Shown in pieces: positions 14,752 to 55,449 of a stretch of 64,000 bases of DNA (position 1 is the first letter of the stretch; each line of letters begins with the position of its first letter). The stretch is from Candidatus Omnitrophota bacterium. GTDB taxonomy: Bacteria > Hinthialibacterota > Hinthialibacteria > OLB16. A model generated the notes under the pieces. The model did not search any database, was not told the origin of the DNA, and worked only from the letters and a program-made list of their open reading frames with translations. The stretch covers positions 10,117 to 74,116 of the forward strand of contig JACKFH010000006.1 of NCBI GenBank assembly GCA_020632575.1. Direction: 5' to 3'. Position numbers and translations under genes: made by a program.

Positions 14752-14755
14752 TCCG

Positions 14756-17029
14756 ATGAAGAATCGAGAAACGCTTCTCTCCCTGATCTTCCTGACAGTC
14801 GCATTATCCATCCTGTTCGCCCCGGTTCTCTTAAGGGGGGAGACCTTTGCTTTGGGCGATGTTCCCGACCAGTTCCTTCCCTGGCGGATCTTCACTGCCG
14901 AGGAAATCGCGGATGGCCGCATCCCCCTTTGGAATCCCTATACCTTTTGCGGATCCCCTTTCCTCGCCAACATGCAGTCCGCCGTCCTATATCCAATCGA
15001 CCGGGCGGTCGATCTCTTTTTCCAACCGGAACAAGGCGTCGGAATCGGAATGATCCTGCACCTCTTCCTGGGTGGGTTCTTTCTCTTTCTCCTTGCGCGT
15101 TCATTCGGCGCTTCGGAGCTCCCCTCGGGGATCGTCGCCATTGGATACGCCCTCGGTGGTTTCCACGCCATCCATTTCCTTGGAGGCAATCTGCTCACGA
15201 TCACATCGTCCATCTACCTCCCCGGGCACCTCTGGGTTGTTCACTCCCTACGAAAGCGAATCGAGGAGGGAAGGAGGATGGGTTATCTCCCCTTGATCGG
15301 AGTCCTGCTCGCCGTCCTCCAGGTCCTTTCAGGCCACGCCCAAATGACCTTTTACAACGCTTTCTTTGTGGGCGTGTTTTTCGTTTTGAATCTCATTCAA
15401 ATGAAATCTGATCGATCGAGACTCATCGGAATTCTCTCGGGGATCGCGCTCTGCGCGGCTCTCCTCGCCGCTCCGCAGATCCTTCCCACACTCGAATACT
15501 CGCGTCACGCTTCACGGACTGGGACTCTTCCATACCTTCCCGCAACCGAGTTTTCGTTTGGGTGGGAGTTTCTCGCCTCATTCCTCCTCCCCGAATATTT
15601 GGGAACCCGCGCCGACCTTTACACCCCGCTGCGGGCGGACACCTATTGGGGGGACTGGAAGAACTGGTCGGCCGTCTATATCGGCCTCCTCCCCGCCCTC
15701 GGTTTCCTTTCATTCTTCATCTTCCGTTCCCCCTCCCCGCCATGCGGGGAGGGGGCTAGAGGGAGGGGTTCCGAAATTGGTTGGAGGGGTTCCGCCCTCA
15801 CCCTCCTACTCCCACTGCTCCTCATCGCCCTCGTCCTTTCCCTTGGCCGCAACACCCCCATCTACTGGTATGTCCACCACTACGCCCCGCTCTTCGGCAA
15901 GTTCCGGGCGCCTTCGAAATTCCTCCCTGGAGTGATTGTCCCCTTCGCGGTGATTGGAGCGCTCGGCCTCAACTCCCTCTTCTTTCGATTGAGCCAAATC
16001 CGGATGTGTCACAAACGCGCCTTCGCATGGGGCGGAGTCGCCATCTTCGCTGGAGGGCTGCTGTTCGGGTATTCGATGAATTCAGACTTTCTCAGTACAC
16101 CCGTTGAGAAAGGGGAGGTTGTATGGCGGGAGGCTCTCCGGTTTCTCTCCATGCTCGCGATGACTGTCGGAGTCCTCCTTTTTTATGTCCGCTCTCAGCG
16201 CCCCAAGAAAACCGAATTCGACATCTGGCTCGCGCAGCTGGCGCTATTGCTTCTCATATCGTTCGATGTCGGAGCCTACTGCCAGAAGTATCTGGTCTTT
16301 GGATCGTACGACCGCATAAAAGTCTTTCCCTCGGAATGGGTCCGGTCCGAGATCGGCGCAAACGGTCGGCTCCTCGTCTCGCCGGAGGTTCCTCAACTCG
16401 ATAACTGTGTCCCGGACAGGATTCTGACCGCGGGCGGATACGATCCCTTTCAGGTGGGGGATTATGTGGACTACTTCCGCGAAAAGGGTCAATTCGCCGA
16501 GGGTCAGATCCCCGACAGCTGGTCCCCAACTCTCGGTTCCGCCGAGGAACTGGGTGTCACCCACGTGCTCACTACCCGGGCGCTCAATTCCCCCCTGGTC
16601 GAACCCGACAAAAAGAATGGCCCTTGGATGTTGTACCGGGTTCTCGAGACCCAACCCCTGATTCAATTCGTTCCAGATGATAAGGTGGAATCCGCAACCG
16701 ATGTCTCCCTCTCGTTCGGCTGGGATGTTGGGACGCTACGAGTATCAGGGACTGCGCCGACCGAGGGCCGCTTACTAATTCGCAACGTGTATATGCCCGG
16801 GTGGTATGCGACCATTCCAAGGGCTGAAGAGATCCCGGTCGAAATGTCACCGCCCTTCTGGCAATCCTTCCCGGTCAAGGCCGGCGATTTCGACTACTCA
16901 TTGGAGTACCGCCCCGATTCCTGGAAATGGGGAATCCGTTTTTTTTGGGTGGGGGTTTTTGTTTGTTGCATTTTTCTTTTCTATCTTCGATTCGACATCC
17001 GATCAGTTGGGGGCGACACCGGGAACTGA
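14756..17029 (+). CDS. YfhO-family membrane protein (GT-C-type glycosyltransferase that uses undecaprenyl-phosphate-linked sugar donors)
   Basis: 757 aa, poly-topic with a large C-terminal extracytoplasmic domain. It starts 4 nt after the preceding GT-C gene, so they form an operon. Confidence 0.65.
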   Translation: MKNRETLLSLIFLTVALSILFAPVLLRGETFALGDVPDQFLPWRIFTAEEIADGRIPLWNPYTFCGSPFLANMQSAVLYPIDRAVDLFFQPEQGVGIGMILHLFLGGFFLFLLARSFGASELPSGIVAIGYALGGFHAIHFLGGNLLTITSSIYLPGHLWVVHSLRKRIEEGRRMGYLPLIGVLLAVLQVLSGHAQMTFYNAFFVGVFFVLNLIQMKSDRSRLIGILSGIALCAALLAAPQILPTLEYSRHASRTGTLPYLPATEFSFGWEFLASFLLPEYLGTRADLYTPLRADTYWGDWKNWSAVYIGLLPALGFLSFFIFRSPSPPCGEGARGRGSEIGWRGSALTLLLPLLLIALVLSLGRNTPIYWYVHHYAPLFGKFRAPSKFLPGVIVPFAVIGALGLNSLFFRLSQIRMCHKRAFAWGGVAIFAGGLLFGYSMNSDFLSTPVEKGEVVWREALRFLSMLAMTVGVLLFYVRSQRPKKTEFDIWLAQLALLLLISFDVGAYCQKYLVFGSYDRIKVFPSEWVRSEIGANGRLLVSPEVPQLDNCVPDRILTAGGYDPFQVGDYVDYFREKGQFAEGQIPDSWSPTLGSAEELGVTHVLTTRALNSPLVEPDKKNGPWMLYRVLETQPLIQFVPDDKVESATDVSLSFGWDVGTLRVSGTAPTEGRLLIRNVYMPGWYATIPRAEEIPVEMSPPFWQSFPVKAGDFDYSLEYRPDSWKWGIRFFWVGVFVCCIFLFYLRFDIRSVGGDTGN

Positions 17030-17121
17030 AAAAACTATCGAGATCCTGCTAGACCTGCTCCCTATATCCGATATAGAATACTTTGACATGAAACGATATC
17101 TTGGCTAGTCGAGGATCCCTA

Positions 17122-18945: not shown

Positions 18946-18996
18946 GTTCGTTCTTCCCTCCCCATTTTGATCTTTTCCGCTATATTGAAACTCCGA

Positions 18997-25404: not shown

Positions 25405-25429
25405 CTTCACCTCCATGTCGGTTAAGCGT

Positions 25430-27061: not shown

Positions 27062-27247
27062 CGTTGTGGCCTCACAAGTCATTGAAATCGAATTGAACGG
27101 TCGATGGTAACTTGACGGGGCGGATCTCGCAATTCAGCGCGCACAACCCCAAAAGGATTGGGTTGCCGACCCTTTCCGTAACCACTAACCTAACGTCAAT
27201 TGTGACAAGAACGAAGGTTCAGACGAAATCGATGGGAGGACCGAAAC

Positions 27248-34158: not shown

Positions 34159-35166
34159 TTATTTCGCGTCGTCGGCGTAGATATCGAAAACGAGTTGCAT
34201 TGCTTTGAGGGCTTGCTCGGAATTACCGGACTCCACAGGCGAGTCCTCGGTGATGTGACGGATAAAGTCGGCGACCTCGAGCTCCCACGAGGGATCGGTG
34301 TCGAAGTAGATGATTTCCTCGCGCGGTTTTCCGGTGGCGAATCCCTCATCGAATTTCTTACGGGCGATTGTCACCGTCTCATCCCCATAACTCCGAGTCG
34401 AAGAGAGGATTCCATTGACCGAAAGATACCCCTCGGACATGTAGATCTCGAGATTAAATCGGTGCTTCCACTGTGTGCTCGAACTGTGAAGCATCGCGGT
34501 TCGCCCCTCGGTGTCGCGCAGGATAGCAAACACATTGTCCTCGACATCGACATTCCAGAAATGGGTCGAAACGAGGCTCTTCACCTCGACAAAATCGCCA
34601 CAGAAGAGACGGAATAGATCGAGCATGTGGATCCCCTGATCCAGAAGGATGCCGCCGCCGCAAACCTCTTTCGAACTGCGCCACTCCTTTTCGAATCCCT
34701 CGCCACCGGACTTTCCGTAGACGCCTCTCAAAAACAGGATCTTCCCAAGTCTTCCAGTTTTCACGATGCGTTGCGCCTCTTGTATGCCGCCGTGATACCG
34801 GTGATTGAACCCGAATTTGAGTTTCAATTCGGGATTTCTCTTTTCGGCCTCGATAATGGCTTCAACATCCTCAACAGTCCGACCCGGCGGCTTCTCGCAA
34901 AAGACATGTTTCCCAGCATCGAGGGCGGCGATCACCGCGTCGGGGGTAAACCGGTTCGGAGTCGCCACAAACACCGCGTCGACATCCGAGTCGATCACCC
35001 TCCCGATATCCGTGAAACATTCGACCTCGGGGTAATCCTTATGAGTCGATATATTCGGATCGGCGCCTACAGTCACCTGGGCTTGAGGGTGACGCGCGAT
35101 TTCCCGGGCCCTTGTGAGCCCCATCTTTCCAAGGCCGATCAGGCCAATCTTCAGGACATCGTTCAT
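34159..35166 (-). CDS. Gfo/Idh/MocA-family NAD-dependent sugar dehydrogenase (WbpB-like)
   Basis: IGLIGLGKMG Rossmann motif. ATGA overlap with the upstream gene. Confidence 0.8.
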   Translation of the reverse strand: MNDVLKIGLIGLGKMGLTRAREIARHPQAQVTVGADPNISTHKDYPEVECFTDIGRVIDSDVDAVFVATPNRFTPDAVIAALDAGKHVFCEKPPGRTVEDVEAIIEAEKRNPELKLKFGFNHRYHGGIQEAQRIVKTGRLGKILFLRGVYGKSGGEGFEKEWRSSKEVCGGGILLDQGIHMLDLFRLFCGDFVEVKSLVSTHFWNVDVEDNVFAILRDTEGRTAMLHSSSTQWKHRFNLEIYMSEGYLSVNGILSSTRSYGDETVTIARKKFDEGFATGKPREEIIYFDTDPSWELEVADFIRHITEDSPVESGNSEQALKAMQLVFDIYADDAK

Positions 35167-36167
35167 GATTTCTTTTTGGCGGCGACCCTTAAGTGTGAAC
35201 TCAGCCGGTGCTTCTGAAGAAAGGCTTGAAAATCCTCGTGCGCCTCCGCGTCACGATGAGTCAGAAGGTAAGAGATCCATGCGGGAATCCGGATATTCGG
35301 ATCTTGTTCCACCGTGTGATGAACAAACTGGAGGTCGAGCTGACCCGGGGTGCTGAGTTCGAGGATTTCCAAACCAGCCCGGTCCAGAAGTTTTTCGATC
35401 CCATCAATCGACATCAGATTCAAATGTTCGGGAACAAAAATGTAAGGGGCGTTTCCACCGAGCACCTGTAAGTCAAAACCGCTGACCGTTCGGGTGGTGA
35501 AAAAGAAGATACCTTCATCGGAAAGCATGTCTTTCACCGAGACCAGATAATCGTATGGGGAAAACTGATGTTCGAGTTTCTCGAAGGAACTCACCGCGGT
35601 CTGTTCGCTTGGTCTGGATTCAGCGACGTTCACCTTCAAATCCGAATACACACTATCTAACGGGGAAACCGGTTCAAAAGTTGTCAACGCGTCAAAGAGG
35701 TCGAATGACGCCATCTCCTCGAAGAGTTGGGGGAGAGTGGTTCCAATATCCGTGTAGCTTTTGGAGGTCGATTGAGTGGACTCATCGACTATTCGCCCCA
35801 TCCAATTGGCGTTGGCGGCAATCTGGTGACGGTGACGGGCCTGCGCGGTGTTCCTCGCAAGGTGATCCACTCGATACCGACTTGCCTTGGATTCGGAATA
35901 GTAGTGGGCGAGAGCCTCATCGGTCGGCCGTGGGGAGACATAGATGCTCTTGCAGTCCGCACATAAGAGATAGGAAAACCCGTACTTTTCGAAAACCTTT
36001 GAGTTGAGGTGCGATCCACAAGCCGGGCAGTCGATCTCCTCGACCTCTCCCGGATCGAGAAAGTACGTTTTCGACTCCTCGATGCTGAGACGTTTGAACT
36101 CGGACATGAGAGTTGATGGCCGGATCTCCGACTCCTGCAGCCCGCTGGACACCGCGACATGTCTCAT
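35163..36167 (-). CDS. Zinc-ribbon (Methyltransf_13-like) plus methyltransferase-like protein with a degenerate SAM motif
   Basis: CPACGS..CADCKS N-terminal Zn ribbon. There is no clear GxGxG. GGAGG 6 nt upstream of ATG 36167. Confidence 0.55.
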   Translation of the reverse strand: MRHVAVSSGLQESEIRPSTLMSEFKRLSIEESKTYFLDPGEVEEIDCPACGSHLNSKVFEKYGFSYLLCADCKSIYVSPRPTDEALAHYYSESKASRYRVDHLARNTAQARHRHQIAANANWMGRIVDESTQSTSKSYTDIGTTLPQLFEEMASFDLFDALTTFEPVSPLDSVYSDLKVNVAESRPSEQTAVSSFEKLEHQFSPYDYLVSVKDMLSDEGIFFFTTRTVSGFDLQVLGGNAPYIFVPEHLNLMSIDGIEKLLDRAGLEILELSTPGQLDLQFVHHTVEQDPNIRIPAWISYLLTHRDAEAHEDFQAFLQKHRLSSHLRVAAKKKS

Positions 36168-36212
36168 GATTCGCCTCCAATTTGCCGGTCGCAACCCGTG
36201 GATTCTATCATA

Positions 36213-37082
36213 CTATCGCCTGCTTGCCGCGAGAAACAGGCTGCTCCCAAAAGGTAAATTGACACCAAGACGAATTAGAGATTGCTCCAAGGCCAATGCG
36301 CTTCCGAGAAGGCCGTTGGAAAAATCTCCGATTCGGTATTCGCTAGCCGGATCGAAATCTCCAGGGTCCTTCGGCATTCTTAATCTGGACAGTAGAAAGA
36401 GCGGAAGAAGAACGGTCACAAAAGAGGTGCATCTTGAGACCTTGAATCCTGCGCGCGCGACCTTTTCAACAAGTTCTTTTCGAGTGTACCTGCGTTTGTG
36501 GTAAGAGAAATCATCCACAACGCTCCAGAGAAATGGATGTTGAGGGACCGTGATCAGGATCCCCCCACCCGGCCTAATCGCCCGGTGAATTTCCGACAAG
36601 ACTGCCTCATCTTCTTCAATATGCTCGAGCACATCGAATGCCCCGATAACATCGAACTCTTCGGTAAAAGGAATCTTACGCCCGTCCATTTGAAATACGT
36701 CAGCGTCTGGAACACGTCTCTTAGCAAACGGGAGGCTTTCCAATGTGATGTCACTCGCTGAAAGTCGGAGATGGGGAAAATCCTTACGGACCCCGCTGAG
36801 GACGAATCCGGTTCCACAGCCAAGTTCAAAATAGTCTGCCGCCTCGGGAAAGAACCTCTGAATTGCCCACACAATCAATCGGTTGCGATTTACAAACCAG
36901 AAGTGTTTCTCCTCATCCCTGGCCATCCGCTCGGAGAAATCTGAACTCCAACCGTCATTGATTTCGGCGAGATCGGGTGCAAAGACTCGGATTCCCTCTC
37001 GCTCTTCTGGGTGGAAACCACAATCCGGGCAAATCCAATCGCTGTTTTCGAAAAGGCCGGCGCATTGGAGACACCGTCTCAC
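36213..37082 (-). CDS. Class I SAM-dependent methyltransferase with N-terminal zinc ribbon
   Basis: CLQCAG..CPDCG ribbon. ELGCGTG motif I. GTG start with GTGA overlap of the downstream stop. Confidence 0.75.
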   Translation of the reverse strand: MRRCLQCAGLFENSDWICPDCGFHPEEREGIRVFAPDLAEINDGWSSDFSERMARDEEKHFWFVNRNRLIVWAIQRFFPEAADYFELGCGTGFVLSGVRKDFPHLRLSASDITLESLPFAKRRVPDADVFQMDGRKIPFTEEFDVIGAFDVLEHIEEDEAVLSEIHRAIRPGGGILITVPQHPFLWSVVDDFSYHKRRYTRKELVEKVARAGFKVSRCTSFVTVLLPLFLLSRLRMPKDPGDFDPASEYRIGDFSNGLLGSALALEQSLIRLGVNLPFGSSLFLAASRR

Positions 37083-37465
37083 GTACGACTCCCGATGATC
37101 AATCCGGCGACAATGAGCGCGAGGCCGATGACTTTTTCCTTGGTGAGCGCTTCGCCGAAAATAAAGGCGGAACTGACGCCAACCAGGATAAAGGAGAGAC
37201 TCATGAAGGGATAAGCATAGTTCAATTCAAACTTGGTCAGAGCGGCCATCCAACAGAAAAACGCGCCAAGACCAGCAGCAAAACAACTGAGAATCCAAGG
37301 ATTGGGAACGATGGAGGCGAGGAAGAGAATCTTATCGAACAATTCTTCCGGCGGTTGACCCGCTTCATTCACCTTCCATTTCAAAACTAGGTTTCCGTAG
37401 ACGGTGAACATCACCGCACCAAAGATGAATACATAACCCATAGCGCTTGCTGTCCTTTCAATCAC
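37079..37465 (-). CDS. Small 4-TM DMT/SMR-like membrane protein (ArnE/ArnF- or GtrA-like candidate lipid-linked sugar flippase)
   Basis: About 120 aa with four hydrophobic helices. Start GTG 37465 (GTGA coupling) or ATG 37441. Confidence 0.55.
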   Translation of the reverse strand: MIERTASAMGYVFIFGAVMFTVYGNLVLKWKVNEAGQPPEELFDKILFLASIVPNPWILSCFAAGLGAFFCWMAALTKFELNYAYPFMSLSFILVGVSSAFIFGEALTKEKVIGLALIVAGLIIGSRT

Positions 37466-38373
37466 CTCTCATCGAGAATCGCGAGACCGAATCCCGACTG
37501 ACCATAGCCATTCCCATTGTAAAGCATGTATAAATGTCCCTGATGCCGCAAGACAAAAGGGTATTCAATCATTTCTGAATCCCAGCCGGAATCCGAAACG
37601 TCGATGCCCGTCTCCTGGAGCCGGAGTTCCCAATCTTCCCCATCGGGGCTGAATGCGTGACCGATTCGATAGGTGGTCCCTGTCCCGCTTCGATAGGAAA
37701 ACCACATTCGACACTCGCCACTTGGCTCGCGGACAACTGTCGGGCGTGAAAATGCCTGTGCCACGCCAACCTCGTAGGGAACTGAAACTCCGAGTCGACT
37801 CCACTGATGACCGTCTTCGGAGGTCGCCGCTTTGATCACGTGGACCATTTCTCCATTCCCGGCATCCCAGTTCACGGTCGAACCGTACCACATTCGATAA
37901 TTGTTATTCCCCTCACCCTCCACCCAGGGATAGGAAAGACTGATCGGGTCGGTCTTATCCAAGGGCATGAAAGGTCGATCACCTTCCAGTTCAAGCGAAC
38001 CCTCGGAGGTCAAGATGAGACGACCGACTTCTCCTCGCCAATGCTCTCCCGGCGGGCATTGCCAGCCCATAAAAAGAATATATCGATTCCCATCCGCCTC
38101 GTAACAGTTCCCGATGCTAACTCCATGGGAATAGAAACTCCCATCAGCGCCATGCTCGAAGACCGGTTCTTGGTGGACATACACGGTTTTCCCCTTGGCG
38201 ATGTCAACATCGACATAGCCCACTGAAGACCGTTTCTTGTCGTCGCGGCCGCTATAGAAAACACGAAAGAGATCGCCCTCCAAATGGATTGGGAGCGGGT
38301 TGGCGGCGTGACTCACCAGTTTCGGGTGAAGGGGTTCCGGGGCGTAAAGATTCCCCAGCTTTTTCCATTTCAT
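37462..38373 (-). CDS. Five-bladed beta-propeller glycosidase/glycoside-phosphorylase-like protein (GH43/GH130 superfamily)
   Basis: Composition and W/G-rich blade motifs. Cytoplasmic (no signal peptide). Confidence 0.45.
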   Translation of the reverse strand: MKWKKLGNLYAPEPLHPKLVSHAANPLPIHLEGDLFRVFYSGRDDKKRSSVGYVDVDIAKGKTVYVHQEPVFEHGADGSFYSHGVSIGNCYEADGNRYILFMGWQCPPGEHWRGEVGRLILTSEGSLELEGDRPFMPLDKTDPISLSYPWVEGEGNNNYRMWYGSTVNWDAGNGEMVHVIKAATSEDGHQWSRLGVSVPYEVGVAQAFSRPTVVREPSGECRMWFSYRSGTGTTYRIGHAFSPDGEDWELRLQETGIDVSDSGWDSEMIEYPFVLRHQGHLYMLYNGNGYGQSGFGLAILDER

Positions 38374-38421
38374 TTAGATTTAATCTTCGATCTCTCCGCA
38401 AAGCACCGGTGAAGACCTTGT

Positions 38422-39081
38422 TCACATTTCGATCTCATCGCTCTTCTTCTTGAAAAGTTTCGCTCGCTCGGGGACATACACATCCTTTTCGTTCGTGTCC
38501 TTCATAATGATCGCCCCCGCCCCGATCAGCGTGAACGGAGCAACGGTCAGCGAATTCCTCAGTGTTGCGTTGACTCCAATGAAGCAGTTCTTCCCTATAT
38601 GGCAATTGCCTGAAACCACCACATGGGAGGTGATGAAGCAGTTGTCGTCGATGGTCGAATCATGCCCGATGTGATTCCCGCTCCACAGAGTGACATTGTC
38701 CCCCAATTTCACAAAGGGTTGGACCGTGTTGTCCTCGAGAATAAAACAGTTCTCCCCCACCGGATGCTCGGTCAGATAGGAGCATCGACTGCTGACATAG
38801 GAAATCACCTCATAACCGAGTTCCTTGCATTTCAGATATTTCTCGGTTCGCACTTGATTCATCTTCGCATAGGAGAGCGCGACAAAAGCCTGATACTCCG
38901 AAGGAGGATAGGTGTCCGTGATGTTCTCGAAATCCACAAGTGGAAGCCCCTGACATTCATCCGCCTCCCGATAGGCTTTGTCGACCGTGAAAGCGACCAC
39001 TTCGTGTTCCGTATCGGTTTTGAAATAGAAATGAGCGAGACGCGCGATGTCGCCCGCGCCGAAGATGATGAGGTTGGCCAT
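38422..39081 (-). CDS. Sugar N-acetyltransferase, hexapeptide-repeat LbH family (PglD/WbpD/NeuD-like)
   Basis: N-terminal Rossmann-like IIFGAGDIAR, then hexapeptide repeats. Confidence 0.8.
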   Translation of the reverse strand: MANLIIFGAGDIARLAHFYFKTDTEHEVVAFTVDKAYREADECQGLPLVDFENITDTYPPSEYQAFVALSYAKMNQVRTEKYLKCKELGYEVISYVSSRCSYLTEHPVGENCFILEDNTVQPFVKLGDNVTLWSGNHIGHDSTIDDNCFITSHVVVSGNCHIGKNCFIGVNATLRNSLTVAPFTLIGAGAIIMKDTNEKDVYVPERAKLFKKKSDEIEM

Positions 39082-39150
39082 ATCGTTTACTCCCTTCGAT
39101 TTTTGTCGATGGAGCCGAGACCTTAGTCTCCCAACAGAAGACTGAAGCCT

Positions 39151-39792
39151 CTACTCCTTCATGGCATTGTCGGCCCTTACTAGGATCGTGAATTCATAAA
39201 GCCCGTAATCGTGCAGCAACGAAACCCAACGCGAGTATTGTCGCTTACAATGATCGAAGAGAAAACAGGGATCGGCGTAGTAAAGGTCGGGCCGCATGTA
39301 TTCCGCGTCGGAGTAGCTCGTCAGCACATTAAACGCAAACCCTTTGTTCGACAGACCCGCCAATTTGTCGATCGTCTTTAGGCAATAGTCCTTCCATTCT
39401 TCCACCGGAGTTTCCATCTTCACATTGAAAATCCCGCTTGCGACCGTGTAGTCGGCCTTTTCAAGTTGCGTTTCATCTTGGACAAACCGGCAGTTTGCTT
39501 TGGCGCCATGGATCTCTCTGGCGCGCCCGACCATCGCTTGCGAAATGTCGAATCCTCTGTACTCGAAAGGGCAATCGAGAGTCTCCAAGTACTCGACCAG
39601 CCCCCCGTAGCCACACCCAAAGTCGTTAATCGAAAAAGGACTGTCCCCCTCAGCCACTCTTAGAAGCTGCTTAAATCGCAAGAATTGAGACTCCGTCGAG
39701 TTCCAATCGACTCCTTGAGCCGAGGGACCATGCGTTTCCACTTTCTGGGTGTAGTAATCGCCAACTTGGCGAATGATCTTGTCATGGGGCAT
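39151..39792 (-). CDS. Class I SAM-dependent methyltransferase
   Basis: DFGCGYGG motif I. Confidence 0.75.
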   Translation of the reverse strand: MPHDKIIRQVGDYYTQKVETHGPSAQGVDWNSTESQFLRFKQLLRVAEGDSPFSINDFGCGYGGLVEYLETLDCPFEYRGFDISQAMVGRAREIHGAKANCRFVQDETQLEKADYTVASGIFNVKMETPVEEWKDYCLKTIDKLAGLSNKGFAFNVLTSYSDAEYMRPDLYYADPCFLFDHCKRQYSRWVSLLHDYGLYEFTILVRADNAMKE

Positions 39793-40724
39793 TAACGGTC
39801 ACCGCTCTCCGAGTCGTAAATGTGTCTGATTAAAGTGTAGGGTCTCTGCTTGGTCTCGACAAAGATTTTCGAAAGGTAAATGCCGATGACCCCCAAACAA
39901 AAGATGGTCAACCCTCCCAGGAACCACACGGAAACCATGACCGAAGCCCATCCCGCCACTCCGATGCTGAAAAAGAAGCGACGGATCACCAAGTATCCCG
40001 CCATAACCGCGGAGATGCACATGATGAAAAAGCCGAGATAAAAGATATAAACAAGCGGCCGATTGCTGAATGAGGTGATCGAGTTCACCAAGTGAGCCGC
40101 CTTCTTCCGGAAAGTGTAGGTGGTGCTCCCCTTGAAACCTTTCTTGATGGGAACCGCGATCTGATCGAAACCCGTGATCGCCCAGAGACCCGCAATCAGA
40201 ATTTCTCGCTCACGGAATTGAAGAAGCGAGTCGACATACCGCCGTGTCATGAGGCGAACGGTCAGGACATTCAGTGGAAGCGGATCCGAGGAAAGCGCGT
40301 TGAAAATCGTATAAAAGATCCTCCCTGTGATTCGTTCCCACACACCTCCCTTGCGGCTCTCCTGCACACCATAGACGACATCGGCGTTCGTCTCCCGCAT
40401 TCGTTCCTGGAACGCCGCGAGAAGTTCCGGCTCCTCCTCCAGATCGCAATCGATGAGAAAGACCAGATCGCCACTGGATTGGGCCAATCCGGTCATCATC
40501 GCCTTGTGGTGGCCAAAATTTCTGGAAAAGTCGACCACTTTGACTCGAGGATCGGAGCGATGAATGTCAACCGCCACCTCAAGCGAGTCGTCGGGAGAAC
40601 CGTCGTTGACAAAAACGAACTCATAGTCCTCCGTAATGGCGGTCACATTGGCCCGTGCGCGTTCATAGAACTCCTTGAGGTAAGGAGCCGAACGATACAT
40701 CGTGGTGACGATGGAGATCTTCAT
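39792..40724 (-). CDS. GT2 polyprenyl-phosphate glycosyltransferase (GtrB/ArnC/CsbB-like) with C-terminal 2-TM anchor
   Basis: MKISIVTTMYRSAPYL...FVNDGSPDDS DxD region. C-terminal TM pair. The listed upstream extension to 40946 overlaps the neighbouring gene. Confidence 0.8.
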   Translation of the reverse strand: MKISIVTTMYRSAPYLKEFYERARANVTAITEDYEFVFVNDGSPDDSLEVAVDIHRSDPRVKVVDFSRNFGHHKAMMTGLAQSSGDLVFLIDCDLEEEPELLAAFQERMRETNADVVYGVQESRKGGVWERITGRIFYTIFNALSSDPLPLNVLTVRLMTRRYVDSLLQFREREILIAGLWAITGFDQIAVPIKKGFKGSTTYTFRKKAAHLVNSITSFSNRPLVYIFYLGFFIMCISAVMAGYLVIRRFFFSIGVAGWASVMVSVWFLGGLTIFCLGVIGIYLSKIFVETKQRPYTLIRHIYDSESGDR

Positions 40725-40737
40725 GACCGGGAAATTC

Positions 40738-42438
40738 TTACCCAGAATGACCGGCAGGTGAAGGTTGGCGCTCTTTGAGGATTTCAAGGGATCGCGCGGC
40801 TCGTTCAGCCGCGCCCCAATGCCCCGGCCCCAAGACAAAGGTGAAGGGAGCGTCCTTAGAAATTTTCTTAGCGACCGCCGGTTGGAGATGATATTCCTTT
40901 TCGACCAAAGTCTCCCAATCCCCCCAAACCAGGAAGTAATCTCCATCCTGAAGGCTCCTGCGACCTATCTCCATACGATAGGTCCGACCGGGAGTCGGCC
41001 CCGTGACCGCCGCGTCAAGAGTGATCATCGTGTTGAGAACCTGCTTGGTCTTGTCACCCAGATTTTCATAATCTCCATCGACAAACTTCTCGGACTCCGG
41101 TGCGCGAAGCCATCGGAGAACTCGGCCATAGTAGATATAATCGTTGCGGAGGTAGTCCAGCCTGCCTCCATTGAGATCCATGAGAGGGACGAGGCGGATA
41201 GGAACTCCCTCCTCATCAACCTCATAGAGCACCATTCGATACCCACCGGTCGCGAGATCGTCACGATTGAATACGTTCACCGCCTCATAAGCAAATGTCC
41301 GATGAACCGCGCGCCACACCGGCTGGTTCCAAGGCCAATAGCCGTTCCAAGGATGTCCACAAATCCTGGCAAAATTCAACAAGTTGAAGATGAACCCGAT
41401 CGTGAACGCCAACGTGATCAGGCCATTGATAGGATGAGGGCCGAAGTTGGCGATCCTCTCCTCTCCCGCCTTTTTCGCGCCTCGGTCTAAAAAGGGAAAC
41501 ATGGCGGGCAGGTACCCGAAAAGGATTCCCCACATCACTAACTCATGGAGTGGAAGGTATCCCAGATTGAAAAACAGGAGACTCATCAGAAAAAAACCGA
41601 GGCCCTGGAGGAAGACAAACATCCTTCCTGGCCAGCCCAAGTACATGAATAACAACAGGAAAGTCTCGAATATGGCCTGAATATAAAGGCCTGCCCGACA
41701 CAGCGTGTGAAACAAGAGCGGATAACCATCCTTCACAGCGTTGGCGAATTGGTAATGGTCGTTCCAAAAACCTGTCGCCATGGCAACTTGAAGAACATCG
41801 CCCTGGAGCCAGAACTCATCGAAGAAGTGGAAAGCCACGGCCGAAAAATTAACTCCCCAAAAAACCATGATCCCAAAAAAACGAACTCGAGCAAAATTCT
41901 CCGGGGTGAGTCGCACTGCAAAGAAATAAAGACTCTCAATCGGTCGCTTCAGCGGAGACCAACGAGAAAGAAGAGAATCGACGCTATAGTGCTTTCCCCC
42001 TCCAAGAAGAATAAGCAGCCAAAAAACAATGATTGCCGCTTGATCGCCCAGGGTTCCAAAGAGAGGAGGGCTAATCAGAAACAGACTGGTGAAGAGAACA
42101 ATTGCGATGGGAGTCATGAATCCGATCGAGATGAGCACCCCCAGAAAAGCGCCACTCGCCATGAGCAGCCGGATCCCCTCCGGACTGCTTACAACCGCCA
42201 CACCAAAAACCACCAAAAATCGATGGGCGACAAGTATCCCCATGACGAAGCGGAAGAAATTTACATTTCGGATGATTTGTTTTTCATGAACCGGAAGCAG
42301 AAAAGGACCAAACAGGTAGTTCGAGAAATGAGACCCGATTTGGCTTTCTCCTTTTTTATGGGTCAAGGCAGCCAACAATAGGTACAACGCGAAAGCGATG
42401 AGGAGAAAAAGAGAGGGATTCAGAAATGAAAGGTCCAA
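40738..42438 (-). CDS. HTTM/LMF-like polytopic membrane protein (vitamin-K-dependent gamma-carboxylase-like fold) with C-terminal soluble domain
   Basis: TTG start. About 8-10 TM helices, then a ~200-aa hydrophilic C-terminus. The domain call rests on architecture and composition only. Confidence 0.45.
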   Translation of the reverse strand: MDLSFLNPSLFLLIAFALYLLLAALTHKKGESQIGSHFSNYLFGPFLLPVHEKQIIRNVNFFRFVMGILVAHRFLVVFGVAVVSSPEGIRLLMASGAFLGVLISIGFMTPIAIVLFTSLFLISPPLFGTLGDQAAIIVFWLLILLGGGKHYSVDSLLSRWSPLKRPIESLYFFAVRLTPENFARVRFFGIMVFWGVNFSAVAFHFFDEFWLQGDVLQVAMATGFWNDHYQFANAVKDGYPLLFHTLCRAGLYIQAIFETFLLLFMYLGWPGRMFVFLQGLGFFLMSLLFFNLGYLPLHELVMWGILFGYLPAMFPFLDRGAKKAGEERIANFGPHPINGLITLAFTIGFIFNLLNFARICGHPWNGYWPWNQPVWRAVHRTFAYEAVNVFNRDDLATGGYRMVLYEVDEEGVPIRLVPLMDLNGGRLDYLRNDYIYYGRVLRWLRAPESEKFVDGDYENLGDKTKQVLNTMITLDAAVTGPTPGRTYRMEIGRRSLQDGDYFLVWGDWETLVEKEYHLQPAVAKKISKDAPFTFVLGPGHWGAAERAARSLEILKERQPSPAGHSG

Positions 42439-42486
42439 TAGCTTCCCGCCTGCAATATTTATAAGGGCCTCATGGGTGAGACAGCC

Positions 42487-43173
42487 TCATTCCGCCCAGA
42501 TATATTTTGGAGCCTCTTCGCCCACCATGAAAAGCAAATCGAGAATGGTGACTCCATGTTCGAAAGGCTCGGAAATCTGCTCGTATGTCGGGTAATGGGA
42601 GTAGTCCATGTACTCCAGGCCGATTCCCGCCTTCTCAAATTTCTCATCGACAATGTAATCGCGGGCGGCCGGGCCGGAAAGGTAACTGTCCCCTCCGACT
42701 TCTCGAATGATACCAATCAGTTTGTCATCCTTCGACCCCGGAACGCCAAATTCCTTCGAACTTCTCAACTCGGTCCTAATTCCCAGCCAACCACAAATCC
42801 TCTCCACCAAAGTCCGATTCAATTGCGAGAGCAATTCCGGCGAGCCCTCCAGGATCTCCTTAATCGCTGGGAAATAGCGGTCGAAATGAGACGTCTTTCC
42901 GTAGCTGTGCCGAAGAGCCTCGAGGTGCTTGTTGGCCCAGTTCGAGGAATAGTCGATCTTCGCTTCACAGATCAATTGATCGCGCCCGCCCGTCACTGGA
43001 ACCGAAATCCACTTGGCGCTCCCATCCGCCATCTTGATCTTGTTCCGATTCCGCCAATCCCGCGTGGTGTATTGGACATCATCGAGAAAGACAAACGCAT
43101 CCACCCGATGGATCATGTCGAAATACCCTTTCCAGGGGAGGTAATTCGATTGAATAATGGCGACCTTTTTCAT
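42487..43173 (-). CDS. WbqC-family protein
   Basis: MKKVAIIQSNYLPWKGYFDMI is the family-typical N-terminus. Found in O-antigen-like loci. Confidence 0.8.
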   Translation of the reverse strand: MKKVAIIQSNYLPWKGYFDMIHRVDAFVFLDDVQYTTRDWRNRNKIKMADGSAKWISVPVTGGRDQLICEAKIDYSSNWANKHLEALRHSYGKTSHFDRYFPAIKEILEGSPELLSQLNRTLVERICGWLGIRTELRSSKEFGVPGSKDDKLIGIIREVGGDSYLSGPAARDYIVDEKFEKAGIGLEYMDYSHYPTYEQISEPFEHGVTILDLLFMVGEEAPKYIWAE

Positions 43174-43286
43174 AGGCTGGGGACAATAACGACCCGATTG
43201 CTGGTTCGTCAACCGCGGTAGGGCTCGTAGTCCAAGAAATAGGGCTGCATCGATTCGATCAACTCGCCGAAAATAATGGAATCGAG

Positions 43287-44369
43287 ATGAAACATGTTCC
43301 CGCGCTCGACAGTCTTCGCGGCATCGCCGTCCTGTTGGTGGTCTTCCACCATTTCAAGTGGCTTGGCATCGGCTGGATAGGCGTCCAAATCTTCTTTGTC
43401 CTCTCGGGATTCCTCATCACCTCAATTCTCTGGGAACAGAAGGATCGACGCCTCCGACATTACCTGGGGCGCTTTTACTGGAGGCGAATTCTAAGGATCT
43501 TTCCGGTTTACTACGGTTTCCTGTTCGCGGTCAGCCTCGCCTACCTCTCGGTGGGGGAACCGGTCGCCTTCGGAGATTTGGCGCCCTGGTTGTTCAGCTA
43601 CACCTACAACTTCGCCCGTTTTTTCGAACCGGAGATGACTTGGCGCTACTTCGGACACCTTTGGTCATTGGCCATCGAGGAGCAATTTTATCTGGTCTGG
43701 CCATTCGTGGTGTACTGGGTCTCCAAACGCAGTTTTCTGCGATTGTGCATTGCCTTGGTCATGGTTGCCCCCCTTTTCCGGTGGGCGGCGGGACTCTACT
43801 TCCTGGCGCATGATTATCCGCCTGTGCGGTTGGCTCAGTGCGTCTACACCCTTCCAACAACTCATCTCGACGCCTTCGCGGTGGGAGCGGCGCTTTCGGT
43901 GATGGACTCCCGAAAACTGCCCAGCCCGAGGTCGGTCTTTCTTGGAGTCTTCATCGCTTTAACGCTACTCGGCTTCTATCAGTGGGGACTTCTCGACCCC
44001 CACTCCCGAGTCGCTTCGGATTTTGGGTATCCCATCTATCTGAGCGCGAATCTTCAATACATCTGGGGGTACACACTCGTCAATCTTTTGGGAGGAGCGA
44101 TGATTCTATGCGCCGTCAGGGGGGTCGATTTATTCCCGGGGTGGAACAACCGAACGCTCAGGTTCTATGGGAAAATCTCCTACGCCCTATACGTCTGTCA
44201 TTGGCCGCTACTTGGCGCCATAGGGCGGGCGCACGCTTACAACCCCTGGAGCCTTGAGGGGCTCTGTATTTTTGTCCTCTTTTTCGCCACAGCAACCTTC
44301 ATATCCTGGTTGAGCTACCGCTACTACGAAACTTGGTTTCTGCGCCTGAAGGACCGTCACCCGTTTTGA
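43287..44369 (+). CDS. Acyltransferase family 3 (OafA/YrhL-like O-acetyltransferase), 10-TM
   Basis: N-terminal LDSLRGIAVLLVVFHH motif. Confidence 0.8.
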   Translation: MKHVPALDSLRGIAVLLVVFHHFKWLGIGWIGVQIFFVLSGFLITSILWEQKDRRLRHYLGRFYWRRILRIFPVYYGFLFAVSLAYLSVGEPVAFGDLAPWLFSYTYNFARFFEPEMTWRYFGHLWSLAIEEQFYLVWPFVVYWVSKRSFLRLCIALVMVAPLFRWAAGLYFLAHDYPPVRLAQCVYTLPTTHLDAFAVGAALSVMDSRKLPSPRSVFLGVFIALTLLGFYQWGLLDPHSRVASDFGYPIYLSANLQYIWGYTLVNLLGGAMILCAVRGVDLFPGWNNRTLRFYGKISYALYVCHWPLLGAIGRAHAYNPWSLEGLCIFVLFFATATFISWLSYRYYETWFLRLKDRHPF

Positions 44370-44956: not shown

Positions 44957-45004
44957 TCCTTTCCTTCTCGGATTCGGGAGAGATTGTCGTGGAGGCCGCG
45001 GGAA

Positions 45005-47893: not shown

Positions 47894-47944
47894 GTTTCTC
47901 GATGATAAACTTGACCGAGGGATTTAGGGAGGGTGTGGAACTCA

Positions 47945-55406: not shown

Positions 55407-55449
55407 GATGATTTCGACTCCCGATCTCGGATCGCTCGTAGGGGCCCGA

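What the first reader, a model, noticed from the sequence alone, without database searches (positions are those of the whole stretch)
34159..44369. Eleven-gene sugar-modification cluster (ten co-oriented plus a divergent acyltransferase) combining a GtrB/ArnC-like GT2, a small flippase-like protein, three methyltransferases, an N-acetyltransferase, WbqC, an HTTM-like membrane protein and an O-acyltransferase
Ten genes are co-oriented on the minus strand with ATGA/GTGA/TAATG overlaps. The content predicts synthesis of a methylated or acetylated (amino)sugar on a polyprenyl-phosphate carrier. That sugar would be flipped and transferred in the periplasm, in the style of Gtr/Arn/CsbB-YfhO systems. 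No aminotransferase, initiating transferase or Wzx/Wzy is present, and an HTTM-fold protein and a GH-like propeller are unusual members. The acceptor could be LPS, a lipid, or a secreted protein, and is unknown.
Basis: partly seen in the sequence, partly recalled or inferred. Interest (0 to 1): 0.6.

Follow-up and report, generated by a model that had tools for sequence, protein, structure and literature searches.

The report
Sugar-modification operon with GGCX-fold membrane enzyme
This is an Omnitrophota copy of a widespread but unstudied gene cassette that loads a modified sugar onto a lipid carrier for transfer outside the cell membrane. Its unusual feature is an unannotated membrane protein with the fold of the human vitamin K-dependent carboxylase.

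Summary
In detail: ten tightly packed minus-strand genes (34159-43212) plus a divergent Acyl_transf_3 gene (43287-44369).

Domain searches confirm:
- an ArnC/GtrB/PgfS-like GT2;
- an ArnE/F-like 4-TM protein;
- three SAM methyltransferases;
- a NeuD/PglB/VioB acetyltransferase;
- WbqC;
- a GH130/GH117/GH43-like propeller.

The gene the title leaves unnamed is a GFO/IDH/MocA oxidoreductase.

The core order (WbqC, GT2, MT, LbH, propeller, small flippase, MT) recurs in cyanobacteria, Cupriavidus and others. There it sits next to a GT-C (PMT_2 or YfhO) and often RmlA/RmlB/DegT. The system is therefore a three-component polyprenyl-phosphate-sugar glycosylation cassette.

The 566-aa protein has no Pfam or NCBIfam match. 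A pLDDT 92 model matches only human gamma-glutamyl carboxylase. The GGCX active-site tryptophan is kept, but the catalytic Lys218 is not. Its family (464 clusters at 50% identity) lies in this cassette in 14 of 15 informative loci.

No GT-C lies in the cluster. A distant YfhO homologue lies about 17 kb away.

The sugar, the acceptor and the role of the GGCX-fold protein remain inferred. Verdict: a new variant of a known kind, of moderate to good interest.

The parts
34159..35166 (-). g1: GFO/IDH/MocA NAD(P)-dependent sugar oxidoreductase, 335 aa, last gene of the operon
   Evidence: PF22725 at 8e-26 and PF01408 at 1.5e-20. Partial matches to inositol 2-dehydrogenase and UDP-GlcNAc 3-dehydrogenase models are below their cut-offs. 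90% identical in L001. A GFO fusion protein sits in the related locus L017.
35163..36194 (-). g2: class I SAM methyltransferase (Methyltransf_23). The probable start is ATG 36167, giving 334 aa
   Evidence: PF13489 at 8.6e-10. The L001 orthologue is called at 334 aa and is 80% identical.
36213..37082 (-). g3: class I SAM methyltransferase (Methyltransf_11) with an N-terminal CxxC...CxxC zinc-ribbon-like motif, 289 aa
   Evidence: PF08241 at 1.3e-15. Orthologues of 46-52% identity occur in cassettes L003, L008, L010, L013 and L017. It is absent from L001.
37079..37465 (-). g4: small multi-TM EamA/ArnE-ArnF-like protein, 120-128 aa, candidate polyprenyl-phosphate-sugar flippase
   Evidence: EamA scores 29.7 bits against a cut-off of 28.2. 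ArnF 1.7e-13 and ArnE 2.6e-8 are below the equivalog cut-offs; EbrB is 5.8e-5. The hydropathy scan gives 5 segments, two of which overlap, so about 4 TM. The same position is held by EamA in L010, L011, L003 and L013, and by GtrA in Cupriavidus L008.
37462..38373 (-). g5: cytoplasmic five-bladed beta-propeller of the GH130/GH117/GH32/GH43 superfamily, 303 aa, hallmark of the cassette
   Evidence: No Pfam hit for the protein itself. The family profile A4 hits 1,2-beta-oligomannan phosphorylase (GH130) at 1e-9, GH117 at 2e-9, GH32 at 2e-6 and GH43 at 1e-3. More than 5100 homologues; most of the 120 best are 64-70% identical, from hosts that include Gallionella, Cupriavidus, a cyanobacterium and Acidobacteria. 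No TM segment.
38422..39081 (-). g6: left-handed beta-helix sugar N-acetyltransferase of the NeuD/PglB/VioB family, 219 aa
   Evidence: TIGR03570 scores 163.4 bits against a cut-off of 160.8. Hexapep 5e-23. 47-89% identical in 9 related loci.
39151..39792 (-). g7: small class I SAM methyltransferase, 213 aa
   Evidence: Methyltransf_12, _25 and _23 score 1.7e-6 to 1.5e-5, with only Methyltransf_25 just above the Pfam cut-off. Conserved next to the GT2 in L010, L011, L017 and L022.
39792..40724 (-). g8: GT2 polyprenyl-phosphate glycosyltransferase (ArnC/GtrB/PgfS type), 310 aa from ATG 40724. The longest ORF runs to 40946
   Evidence: PF00535 at 6.8e-28. PgfS 3.7e-52 and ArnC 2.9e-32 are below the equivalog cut-offs. 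Processive synthases score only about 1e-9. C-terminal hydrophobic segments lie at 224-280. L001 has a 310-aa orthologue, 83% identical.
40738..42438 (-). g9: 566-aa polytopic membrane protein with a periplasmic C-terminal alpha/beta domain. It has a GGCX/HTTM-like fold and no Pfam or NCBIfam model. The start is uncertain (TTG 42438, or about 24 codons later as in NCBI's 542-aa call)
   Evidence: No family hit even at E = 1. AF2 model: pLDDT 92.3, pTM 0.92. In Foldseek against the PDB the top 11 hits are all human GGCX (prob 0.90-1.00, E 6e-3 to 0.12, TM 0.31-0.36), and no GT-C ranks among the 50 best hits. hhalign against GGCX gives E 1.5e-4 and prob 52% over residues 54-230. Invariant residues are R63, G106, H204, W210, F282, R426 and Y487. 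7 of 73 relatives carry a DCC1-like insert. The family has 464 clusters at 50% identity. It lies in the cassette in 14 of 15 informative loci.
42487..43212 (-). g10: WbqC-family protein, first gene of the operon. The probable start is ATG 43173, giving 228 aa
   Evidence: PF08889 scores 257.9 bits against a cut-off of 21.3. No solved relative. No functional literature was found. Present in 11 related loci.
43287..44369 (+). g11: divergent Acyl_transf_3 (AT3) membrane O-acyltransferase, 360 aa
   Evidence: PF01757 at 3.6e-32. The same divergent position next to WbqC is seen in L001, L002 and L019, at 61-72% identity.
14756..17029 (+). Candidate trans-acting GT-C partner: a distant YfhO-family membrane protein, 757 aa, about 17 kb from the cluster
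   Evidence: No direct Pfam hit. Homologues at E 1e-42 to 1e-17 carry PF09586 and are named YfhO family protein. About 10 TM plus a C-terminal TM. Linkage to the cluster is not shown.

Best explanation
**What it is.** The cluster is the Omnitrophota version of a widespread, experimentally uncharacterised cassette for periplasmic glycosylation through a polyprenyl-phosphate-linked sugar. This is the Arn / Gtr / CsbB-GtcA-YfhO / Pgf type of three-component system.

**Inferred cytoplasmic steps.**
1. A nucleotide sugar is oxidised by the GFO/IDH/MocA enzyme g1. In related cassettes the keto-sugar comes from RmlA/RmlB instead.
2. It is aminated by a DegT-type aminotransferase. That gene is part of most related cassettes but is not in this window.
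3. It is N-acetylated by g6 and further tailored by WbqC (g10), the methyltransferases g2, g3 and g7, and the GH130-like propeller g5.

**Inferred membrane steps.**
4. The GT2 g8 transfers the sugar to undecaprenyl phosphate.
5. The ArnE/F-like g4 flips it.
6. At the periplasmic face it is transferred to an unknown envelope acceptor. AT3 (g11) may O-acylate it.

**The distinctive component.** g9 is a divergent GGCX/HTTM-fold membrane enzyme. Its conserved His-x-x-Asp-x-x-Trp motif and its C-terminal domain face the periplasm. I infer that it acts on the flipped lipid-linked sugar or on its acceptor, as a pathway-dedicated extra enzyme. It is not a vitamin K-dependent carboxylase. The glycosyl transfer itself most likely needs a GT-C encoded elsewhere, for example the YfhO-like gene at 14756-17029.

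**Shown versus inferred.** Shown: family assignments, gene order, conservation of the cassette, fold similarity of g9, and the genomic coupling of g9 to the cassette. Inferred: the order of reactions, the identity of the sugar, the acceptor and the chemistry of g9.
For: -
- The GT2 matches PgfS and ArnC far better than processive synthases. The 4-TM protein matches ArnF and ArnE better than SMR exporters.
- The same core order occurs with a GT-C directly attached in a cyanobacterium (PMT_2-WbqC-GT2-MT-LbH-propeller-EamA-MT-MT). It also occurs with RmlA, RmlB, DegT and YfhO in L011. In Cupriavidus it occurs with GtrA, DegT and rml genes.
- DegT orthologues of 51-59% identity occur in six related cassettes.
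- g9 model: pLDDT 92.
- hhalign aligns the HTTM core. It maps H204 to K217, F205 to K218, D207 to D220, W210 to W223 and G213 to G226. In GGCX, W223 is the residue that stacks on the catalytic K218 (PMC12647623).
- DCC1-like inserts occur in 7 of 73 relatives. They copy a known bacterial HTTM-DCC architecture (bioRxiv 10.64898/2026.08.19.745780).
- The positive-inside count is 9 K+R in cytoplasmic loops against 1 in the short periplasmic loops. This places the motif and the C-terminal domain in the periplasm.
- g9 relatives down to 26% identity sit inside the cassette in 14 of 15 informative loci, which include Omnitrophota, Bdellovibrionaceae and Polyangiales MAGs.
- Most non-Omnitrophota g9 loci also carry a PMT_2, a YfhO-like protein, DUF6044 or other 9-11-TM proteins. 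This argues that g9 is an addition and not a GT-C replacement.
- A distant YfhO homologue lies in the window.
Against: - No component has been studied experimentally. WbqC and the propeller have no known activity.
- No aminotransferase or nucleotidyltransferase is in the window, so the substrate of the N-acetyltransferase is unexplained here.
- GT2 and ArnE/F scores are below the NCBIfam equivalog cut-offs.
- The fold match of g9 to GGCX is remote (Foldseek E about 6e-3, TM about 0.35, RMSD 13-16 A).
- No sequence-model evidence places g9 in HTTM. No Pfam model matches any of 73 family members at E 0.01, and the profile against PDB sequences finds nothing.
- The YfhO-like gene is 17 kb away. 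It sits in a different gene group with a GT4 and a carbamoyltransferase and may serve another pathway.
- The two Omnitrophota loci and L022 show no obvious GT-C in the cluster. That leaves room for g9 being the transferase.
Confidence: 0.6

Rival explanations
1. g9 is itself the periplasmic glycosyltransferase. It would be a non-GT-C, GGCX-fold enzyme that binds the polyprenyl-phosphate-sugar in the membrane, as GGCX binds the isoprenyl quinone, and transfers the sugar to the acceptor. In the Omnitrophota cluster it would replace the GT-C.
For: - In the cyanobacterial cassette a PMT_2 GT-C sits directly upstream of WbqC. In the window and in L001 no GT-C is in the cluster, and g9 lies between WbqC and the GT2. 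L022 also shows g9 with no recognisable GT-C.
- g9's conserved polar residues (H204, D207, E299, R63, R426) and its C-terminal domain face the periplasm.
Against: - Most other g9 loci also encode PMT_2, YfhO-like, DUF6044 or other large polytopic proteins next to g9.
- A YfhO-family gene exists in the window.
- No glycosyltransferase activity is known for any HTTM-fold protein.
Confidence: 0.2
2. g9 is a quinone- and O2-dependent GGCX/MloH-type enzyme. It would carry out a carboxylation or other oxidative modification of the sugar substituent or of a protein acceptor in the periplasm.
For: - The only structural relatives are GGCX.
- The W223 and D220 equivalents are invariant or nearly so.
- DCC1-like thiol-disulfide oxidoreductase inserts in 7 of 73 relatives suggest redox chemistry.
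- A bacterial HTTM enzyme, MloH, carboxylates a small-molecule intermediate.
Against: - The catalytic base K218 aligns with a hydrophobic residue (F, L, V or I at position 205).
- H160 of GGCX aligns with a glycine in the hhalign output.
- No family member reaches any Pfam model at E 0.01, the HTTM model PF05090 included.
Confidence: 0.1
3. The cluster is an ordinary cytoplasmic NDP-sugar and O-antigen/EPS decoration locus. The GT2 would add a sugar to a Und-PP-linked repeat unit, the small membrane protein would be a drug/metabolite exporter, and g9 would be an unrelated neighbour.
For: - GT2, ArnF and ArnE scores are below the equivalog cut-offs.
- L022 places the cassette inside a Wzy-containing polysaccharide locus.
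Against: - The best GT2 matches are to the polyprenyl-phosphate transferases PgfS and ArnC, over the full length including the membrane tail.
- The small protein position is filled by GtrA in Cupriavidus.
- GT-C genes are attached to the cassette in several phyla.
- g9 is coupled to the cassette in 14 of 15 informative loci.
Confidence: 0.08

Closest known systems
Three-component periplasmic glycosylation systems: ArnC/ArnE-F/ArnT (lipid A L-Ara4N), GtrB/GtrA/Gtr-type (O-antigen glucosylation), CsbB/GtcA/YfhO (teichoic acid glycosylation; PMC5836110, PMC7389260, PMC8035078) and PgfS/PgfM1/PgfM2 of Streptococcus mutans
   Same: The cluster has a GT2 of the ArnC/PgfS type with a C-terminal membrane tail and a small multi-TM ArnE/F-like (EamA) protein. 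Upstream sugar-nucleotide tailoring genes sit in the same operon, as in arn. Related cassettes carry a PMT_2 or YfhO GT-C next to these genes.
   Different: - No GT-C lies in this cluster. The only candidate is a distant YfhO homologue 17 kb away.
- The tailoring set (WbqC, GH130-like propeller, three methyltransferases, NeuD-like acetyltransferase, GFO oxidoreductase) is unlike any characterised system.
- An additional GGCX-fold membrane protein is present.
- The sugar and the acceptor are unknown.
[quoted passage not shown]
   Same: - The overall architecture is shared: a polytopic HTTM-like membrane domain followed by an extracytoplasmic domain.
- GGCX is the only significant fold match in the PDB.
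- The F-R-x-x-x-G, S-x-D-x-L-L and D-x-x-W-x-x-G motifs align.
- A DCC1-like domain is inserted after the membrane core in some relatives.
   Different: - No hit to any Pfam model (PF05090 included) for any of 73 members.
- The catalytic Lys218 is replaced by a hydrophobic residue, with an invariant His one position earlier.
- The genomic context is sugar modification, not a peptide or RiPP or polyketide substrate.
- TM-score is only about 0.35.
GH130 beta-mannoside phosphorylases, and the GH117, GH43 and GH32 five-bladed propellers
   Same: The g5 family profile matches 1,2-beta-oligomannan phosphorylase (1e-9), GH117 (2e-9), GH32 and GH43 structures. Faint Pfam hits to GH43_rel, GH130 and GINT1_N occur in relatives.
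   Different: g5 itself has no Pfam match. It is cytoplasmic, about 300 aa, embedded in a biosynthetic operon, and 64-70% identical across distant phyla. This is atypical for catabolic glycoside hydrolases. Its catalytic residues were not examined.
dTDP-4-amino-4,6-dideoxyhexose N-acetylation pathways (VioA/VioB-type; own knowledge, offered as a lead)
   Same: g6 passes the NeuD/PglB/VioB family cut-off. Related cassettes carry RmlA, RmlB and DegT.
   Different: This window has none of RmlA, RmlB or DegT. It has a GFO/IDH/MocA oxidoreductase instead. The actual sugar is not determined.

Membership tests
Three-component polyprenyl-phosphate-sugar glycosylation system (Arn/Gtr/CsbB-YfhO type) | GT2 that makes a polyprenyl-monophosphate-sugar (ArnC/GtrB/CsbB/PgfS family, C-terminal TM helices) | tested here: met
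   PF00535 at 6.8e-28. PgfS matches at 3.7e-52 over 300 residues and ArnC at 2.9e-32 over 305 residues, both below the equivalog cut-offs. Processive synthases score about 1e-9. Hydrophobic segments lie at 224-280. Enzyme activity was not tested.
Three-component polyprenyl-phosphate-sugar glycosylation system (Arn/Gtr/CsbB-YfhO type) | Small 4-TM flippase (GtrA or ArnE/ArnF type) in the same operon | tested here: met
   EamA scores 29.7 bits against a cut-off of 28.2. ArnF 1.7e-13 and ArnE 2.6e-8 are below their cut-offs. It is positionally replaced by GtrA (PF04138) in Cupriavidus L008.
Three-component polyprenyl-phosphate-sugar glycosylation system (Arn/Gtr/CsbB-YfhO type) | GT-C fold transferase acting at the outer face | tested here: inconclusive
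   None lies in the cluster, and g9 does not match GT-C folds. A distant YfhO-family gene lies at 14756-17029, but its linkage to the cluster is unproven. Related cassettes have PMT_2 or YfhO adjacent.
HTTM / vitamin K-dependent carboxylase superfamily (PF05090) | Match to the Pfam HTTM model | tested here: not met
   No Pfam hit for g9 at E up to 1. None of 73 family members hits PF05090 at E 0.01.
HTTM / vitamin K-dependent carboxylase superfamily (PF05090) | GGCX-like three-dimensional fold (HTTM membrane core plus extracytoplasmic domain) | tested here: met
HTTM / vitamin K-dependent carboxylase superfamily (PF05090) | Profile-level sequence similarity over the HTTM core | tested here: inconclusive
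   hhalign of the 73-sequence profile against human GGCX gives E 1.5e-4, probability 52%, 156 columns, residues 54-230 against 59-237. hmmsearch against PDB sequences finds nothing.
HTTM / vitamin K-dependent carboxylase superfamily (PF05090) | Catalytic general base Lys218 (vitamin K hydroquinone deprotonation) | tested here: not met
   K218 aligns with position 205, which is F, L, V or I in 66 of 73 members (the four commonest residues). The invariant H204 aligns with K217. The W223 equivalent, W210, is invariant (role of K218 and W223 from PMC12647623).
WbqC-like family (PF08889) | Match to the Pfam model above the gathering score | tested here: met
   257.9 bits against a cut-off of 21.3, full-length.
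NeuD/PglB/VioB sugar acetyltransferase family (TIGR03570) | Match above the curated cut-off, with the N-terminal PglD_N-like domain plus hexapeptide repeats | tested here: met
   163.4 bits against a cut-off of 160.8 over residues 3-206. Hexapep 5e-23. PglD_N is weak at 0.007.
GH130 / GH43-type five-bladed beta-propeller | Sequence similarity to solved members | tested here: met
   The family profile hits GH130 at 1e-9, GH117 at 2e-9, GH32 at 2e-6 and GH43 at 1e-3.

The most novel reading that the evidence does not exclude
The g9 family is a new, unannotated branch of the GGCX/HTTM fold that has been recruited into envelope glycoconjugate biosynthesis. It would be a periplasm-facing enzyme that binds a polyprenyl-phosphate-linked aminosugar. 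It would either transfer the sugar to the acceptor, which would make it a glycosyltransferase that is not GT-A, GT-B or GT-C. Or it would chemically modify the sugar at the membrane surface using a His-Asp-Trp site derived from the carboxylase active site. This would be the first role of this fold outside vitamin K-dependent carboxylation of peptides or metabolites.
Probability: 0.4. Interest if true: 0.8.

Novelty: new variant of a known kind. Interest (0 to 1): 0.6.

Why it matters
- **A widespread uncharacterised cassette.** The WbqC, GT2, methyltransferase, NeuD-like acetyltransferase, GH130-like propeller and small flippase cassette is very widespread. The propeller alone has more than 5100 homologues, in Proteobacteria, cyanobacteria, Acidobacteria, Omnitrophota and others. 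I found no functional study of it. It probably decorates LPS, other glycans or proteins with a tailored aminosugar. That is relevant to phage and host recognition and to envelope charge.
- **A new setting for the HTTM fold.** Bacterial HTTM/GGCX-like proteins are almost entirely uncharacterised. Here a family missed by Pfam and NCBIfam is tied to a defined pathway, with a clear topology and a small set of invariant residues (R63, H204, W210, R426, Y487). That makes its function directly testable. It also offers a view of what the GGCX fold does when the vitamin K base is absent.
- **Envelope biology of an uncultured phylum.** The cluster gives a concrete handle on the envelope of Omnitrophota.

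Tried and rejected
- **Direct searches that found nothing.** Pfam and NCBIfam searches of g9 and g5 were empty even at E = 1. PDB sequence searches with g9, with the g9 profile, with WbqC and with the two membrane ORFs at 13318-17029 gave no meaningful match.
- **Locus scans with low yield.** The search for related loci with the 73-sequence alignment failed because no stretch was conserved enough. With the 23-sequence alignment, the single pattern used found only 4 genome loci and 5 metagenome loci.
- **Uninformative scan.** The promoter and terminator scan found no more sites than in shuffled sequence.
- **Literature.** Searches for WbqC and for HTTM plus glycosyltransferase gave no functional information.
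- **Rejected: g9 is a GT-C enzyme.** No GT-C ranks among the 50 best structural hits listed.
- **Rejected: g9 is a bona fide vitamin K carboxylase.** K218 is not conserved.
- **Rejected: the 4-TM protein is a drug exporter.** ArnF and ArnE score better, and GtrA occupies the same position in Cupriavidus.
- **Rejected: the GT2 is a processive synthase.**
- **Rejected: 13318-14751 is a recognisable GT-C.** No evidence either way.

Full report
**1. The observation**

The region holds ten co-oriented minus-strand ORFs between 34159 and 43212, and a divergent plus-strand ORF at 43287-44369.

- ATGA between g2 and g1.
- GTGA between g4 and g3, and between g5 and g4.
- TAATG between g8 and g7.
- The remaining gaps are 13-69 nt.

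Three starts need trimming:
- The GT2 most likely starts at ATG 40724, giving 310 aa. This is 13 nt after the stop of the preceding gene, and it matches the 310-aa gene called in a syntenic MAG.
- g2 probably starts at 36167.
- WbqC probably starts at 43173.

G+C in the cluster is 0.51-0.53, against 0.54-0.58 in most of the window. A 99-100% identical protein is on record from a Candidatus Omnitrophica MAG.

**2. Gene content**

Pfam and NCBIfam give the following.

| Gene | Assignment |
|---|---|
| g2, g3, g7 | class I SAM methyltransferases |
| g4 | small EamA protein; best specific matches are ArnF (1.7e-13) and ArnE (2.6e-8), ahead of the SMR exporter EbrB (5.8e-5) |
| g6 | NeuD/PglB/VioB-family acetyltransferase, above the curated cut-off (163.4 against 160.8 bits) |
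| g8 | GT2; PgfS (3.7e-52) and ArnC (2.9e-32) match over the full length, while PgaC and NodC reach only about 1e-9 |
| g10 | WbqC (258 bits) |
| g11 | Acyl_transf_3 |

g8 has C-terminal hydrophobic segments.

g5 has no Pfam hit. A profile of its family matches solved GH130 (1,2-beta-oligomannan phosphorylase, 1e-9), GH117, GH32 and GH43 propellers. It has no TM segment.

g9 (566 aa) has no hit in Pfam or NCBIfam (Pfam even at E = 1).

**3. The cluster is one version of a widespread cassette**

The propeller g5 has more than 5100 homologues. Most of the 120 best are 64-70% identical, and their hosts include Gallionella, Cupriavidus, a cyanobacterium, Acidobacteria and Syntrophales.

Neighbourhoods of three of them are:

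| Locus | Organism | Gene order |
|---|---|---|
| L010 | Leptothermofonsia | PMT_2 (GT-C), WbqC, GT2, MT, LbH, propeller, EamA, MT, MT |
| L011 | not named | RmlA, RmlB, WbqC, GT2, a 212-aa protein (51% identical to g7 by tblastn), LbH, propeller, EamA, two membrane proteins, DegT, YfhO |
| L008 | Cupriavidus pauculus | GT-C-like 519-aa protein, propeller, GtrA, MT, WbqC, MT, LbH, PhyH, GT2, DegT, next to rml genes |

The window has the same order: WbqC, [g9], GT2, MT, LbH, propeller, EamA, MT, MT, GFO. It differs in three ways:
- No GT-C is attached.
- No DegT, RmlA or RmlB is present anywhere in the 64 kb (tblastn).
- g9 is inserted between WbqC and the GT2.

Taken together, the cassette has the three parts of an Arn / Gtr / CsbB-GtcA-YfhO type system: a polyprenyl-phosphate glycosyltransferase, a small flippase and a GT-C. 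The scheme is described in PMC5836110, PMC7389260 and PMC8035078. The cassette adds a conserved set of sugar-nucleotide tailoring enzymes.

The RmlA, RmlB, DegT and NeuD/VioB-like combination in relatives suggests an N-acetylated amino-deoxyhexose that is further methylated. This is an inference.

**4. The GGCX-fold protein g9**

*Family size.* A word-based search found only 8 relatives. An exhaustive profile search found 464 representatives at 50% identity.

*Fold.* With a 73-sequence alignment, AlphaFold2 gives a confident model (pLDDT 92.3, pTM 0.92). It has about ten membrane helices and a C-terminal alpha/beta domain (residues 360-566). In Foldseek against the PDB, human vitamin K-dependent gamma-carboxylase fills the top 11 places (probability 0.90-1.00). 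The next hits have probability 0.13 or less, and no GT-C enzyme ranks among the 50 best hits. A first, weaker model gave the same answer. The match is remote: E 6e-3 to 0.12, TM 0.31-0.36.

*Sequence.* hhalign of the family profile against the GGCX sequence gives E 1.5e-4 and probability 52%. The alignment covers residues 54-230 against GGCX 59-237 and lines up these motifs:
- the F-R-x-x-x-G helix;
- the S-V-D-x-L-L motif;
- HFFDEFWLQG with KKLDADWVEG.

| g9 residue | GGCX residue | Conservation in the g9 family |
|---|---|---|
| H204 | K217 | invariant |
| F205 | K218 | F, L, V or I in 66 of 73 (the four commonest residues) |
| D207 | D220 | 71 of 73 |
| W210 | W223 | invariant |

In GGCX, K218 is the general base and W223 stacks on it (PMC12647623). 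The pocket scaffold is therefore kept but the vitamin K base is not. This argues against carboxylase chemistry and for an active enzyme of a different kind.

*DCC1-like inserts.* Seven of 73 relatives carry a DCC1-like thiol-disulfide oxidoreductase domain in the loop after the membrane core. An HTTM plus DCC1-like fusion is a known bacterial architecture (bioRxiv 10.64898/2026.08.19.745780).

*Limits.* No family member matches any Pfam model at E 0.01, so none matches PF05090. The profile finds nothing among PDB sequences.

*Topology.* Counting K+R in the loops between the model's helices gives 9 in the loops assigned to the cytoplasm and 1 in the short loops assigned to the periplasm. This puts the H204/D207/W210 motif at the periplasmic membrane boundary and the C-terminal domain in the periplasm. 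It matches the luminal orientation of GGCX as I recall it from the literature.

**5. g9 is coupled to the cassette**

I collected 17 distinct loci with a g9-family gene and scored them by tblastn with the window's proteins.
- Fourteen carry cassette genes (GT2, propeller, WbqC, LbH or MT). Most of those outside Omnitrophota also carry DegT.
- They include a relative only 26% identical to g9 (L022: WbqC, MT, LbH, GT2, propeller, g9, DegT, RmlA).
- They include MAGs assigned to Omnitrophota, Bdellovibrionaceae and Polyangiales, and a TARA ocean contig.
- Two of the three exceptions are contigs of 2-5 kb.
- The third (L005) has g9 next to a PMT_2 GT-C and a DegT.

g9 is absent from the three cassettes found through the propeller. 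It therefore marks a subset of cassettes.

Outside Omnitrophota, g9 loci usually also encode large polytopic proteins:
- PMT_2 (L005);
- a PMT_2-related 531-aa protein (L003);
- a YfhO-like protein (L013);
- two DUF6044 proteins (L020);
- 9-11-TM proteins of unknown family (L006, L012, L014, L017).

This favours g9 as an additional periplasm-facing enzyme of the pathway and not a general substitute for the GT-C. In the window, L001 and L022 no GT-C is seen in the cluster, so replacement in those lineages is not excluded.

**6. The suggested partners at 13366-17029**

Neither ORF has a Pfam hit even at E = 5, and neither has a solved relative.
- A database search with the 757-aa ORF (14756-17029) found homologues at E 1e-42 to 1e-17 that carry PF09586 and are named YfhO family protein. 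It also shows weak BLAST links to a YfhO-like protein next to a g9 cassette. It is a distant YfhO-family member.
- The 477-aa, roughly 11-TM ORF (13318-14751) remains unassigned.

Both sit with a beta-helix protein, a GT4 and a carbamoyltransferase. Their link to the cluster is possible but unproven.

**7. Most likely mechanism**

See the Best explanation section. In short:
1. Cytoplasmic tailoring of a nucleotide sugar: g1 oxidation, amination by an enzyme encoded elsewhere, g6 N-acetylation, and methylation or other tailoring by g2, g3, g7, g10 and g5.
2. Transfer to undecaprenyl phosphate by g8.
3. Flipping by g4.
4. Periplasmic transfer to an unknown acceptor by a GT-C in trans or by g9, with g9 acting at the periplasmic face and g11 possibly O-acylating.

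Only the family assignments, the conservation and the fold are shown. The reaction order, the sugar, the acceptor and g9's chemistry are inferred.

**8. Comparison and novelty**

The system works like Arn/Gtr/CsbB-YfhO systems and meets two of their three defining features in cis. g9 resembles GGCX in fold and partly in motif. It fails the Pfam model test and lacks the catalytic lysine. I therefore call it a divergent GGCX/HTTM-fold family, not a member of PF05090 and not a carboxylase.

I found no literature on WbqC function, on this cassette, or on an HTTM-fold protein in glycan biosynthesis.

I rate it a new variant of a known kind, with interest 0.6. The cassette logic is familiar. The dedicated GGCX-fold component and the very highly conserved GH130-like propeller are unexplained and testable.

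Noticed in passing
window 37462-38373 and loci L008, L010, L011: The GH130-like propeller g5 is 64-70% identical between Omnitrophota, Cupriavidus, Gallionella, a cyanobacterium and Acidobacteria. The other cassette proteins are mostly 42-67% identical in the non-Omnitrophota cassettes. Either the constraint on this enzyme is unusually strong, or the cassette has been transferred between phyla recently. Its activity is unknown.
   Followed up: partly
window 13318-21953: This looks like a second glycan-related gene group. It holds an unassigned protein of about 11 TM (13318-14751) and a distant YfhO homologue (14756-17029). It also holds a 614-aa beta-helix/dockerin-like protein (17101-18945), a GT4 (18967-20265) and a carbamoyltransferase (20262-21953).
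   Followed up: partly
window 44357-49447: A 199-aa protein with no family, a hybrid STAS-GAF-PAS histidine kinase/response regulator, and a pectate-lyase-like protein are syntenic with the cluster in L001 and L002. Whether the kinase regulates the operon is unknown.
   Followed up: no
window 49598-57456: A very large (1294 aa) TPR-secretin fusion and a 668-aa PilM/FtsA-like protein suggest a type IV pilus or type II secretion-like apparatus just beyond the cluster.
   Followed up: no
window 24166-27082 and 3934-5250: A PhoD-like phosphatase is fused to a 3-keto-disaccharide hydrolase domain. A DUF4432 protein and a second GFO/IDH/MocA oxidoreductase are also present. This may be a 3-keto-glycoside pathway.
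   Followed up: no
L003 5532-7505 and 6 other relatives in alignment A2: Some g9-family proteins carry a DCC1-like thiol-disulfide oxidoreductase domain (CxxC). It is inserted in the loop predicted to be cytoplasmic, before the last TM helix.
   Followed up: partly
L006, L007, L012, L014 (Polyangiales and Bdellovibrionaceae-type loci): A distinct sub-type of the g9 cassette lacks WbqC and LbH. It carries an Amidohydro_2 protein, a conserved 256-273-aa protein with no family, and PhyH. L006, L012 and L014 also have an NAD epimerase/dehydratase and DegT; L006 further has an LPG_synthase_TM protein.
   Followed up: partly
window 31556-33445 (+) and 32336-33214 (-): A 629-aa beta-helix ORF and a 292-aa ORF with no family overlap on opposite strands. 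Only one of them is likely to be real.
   Followed up: no
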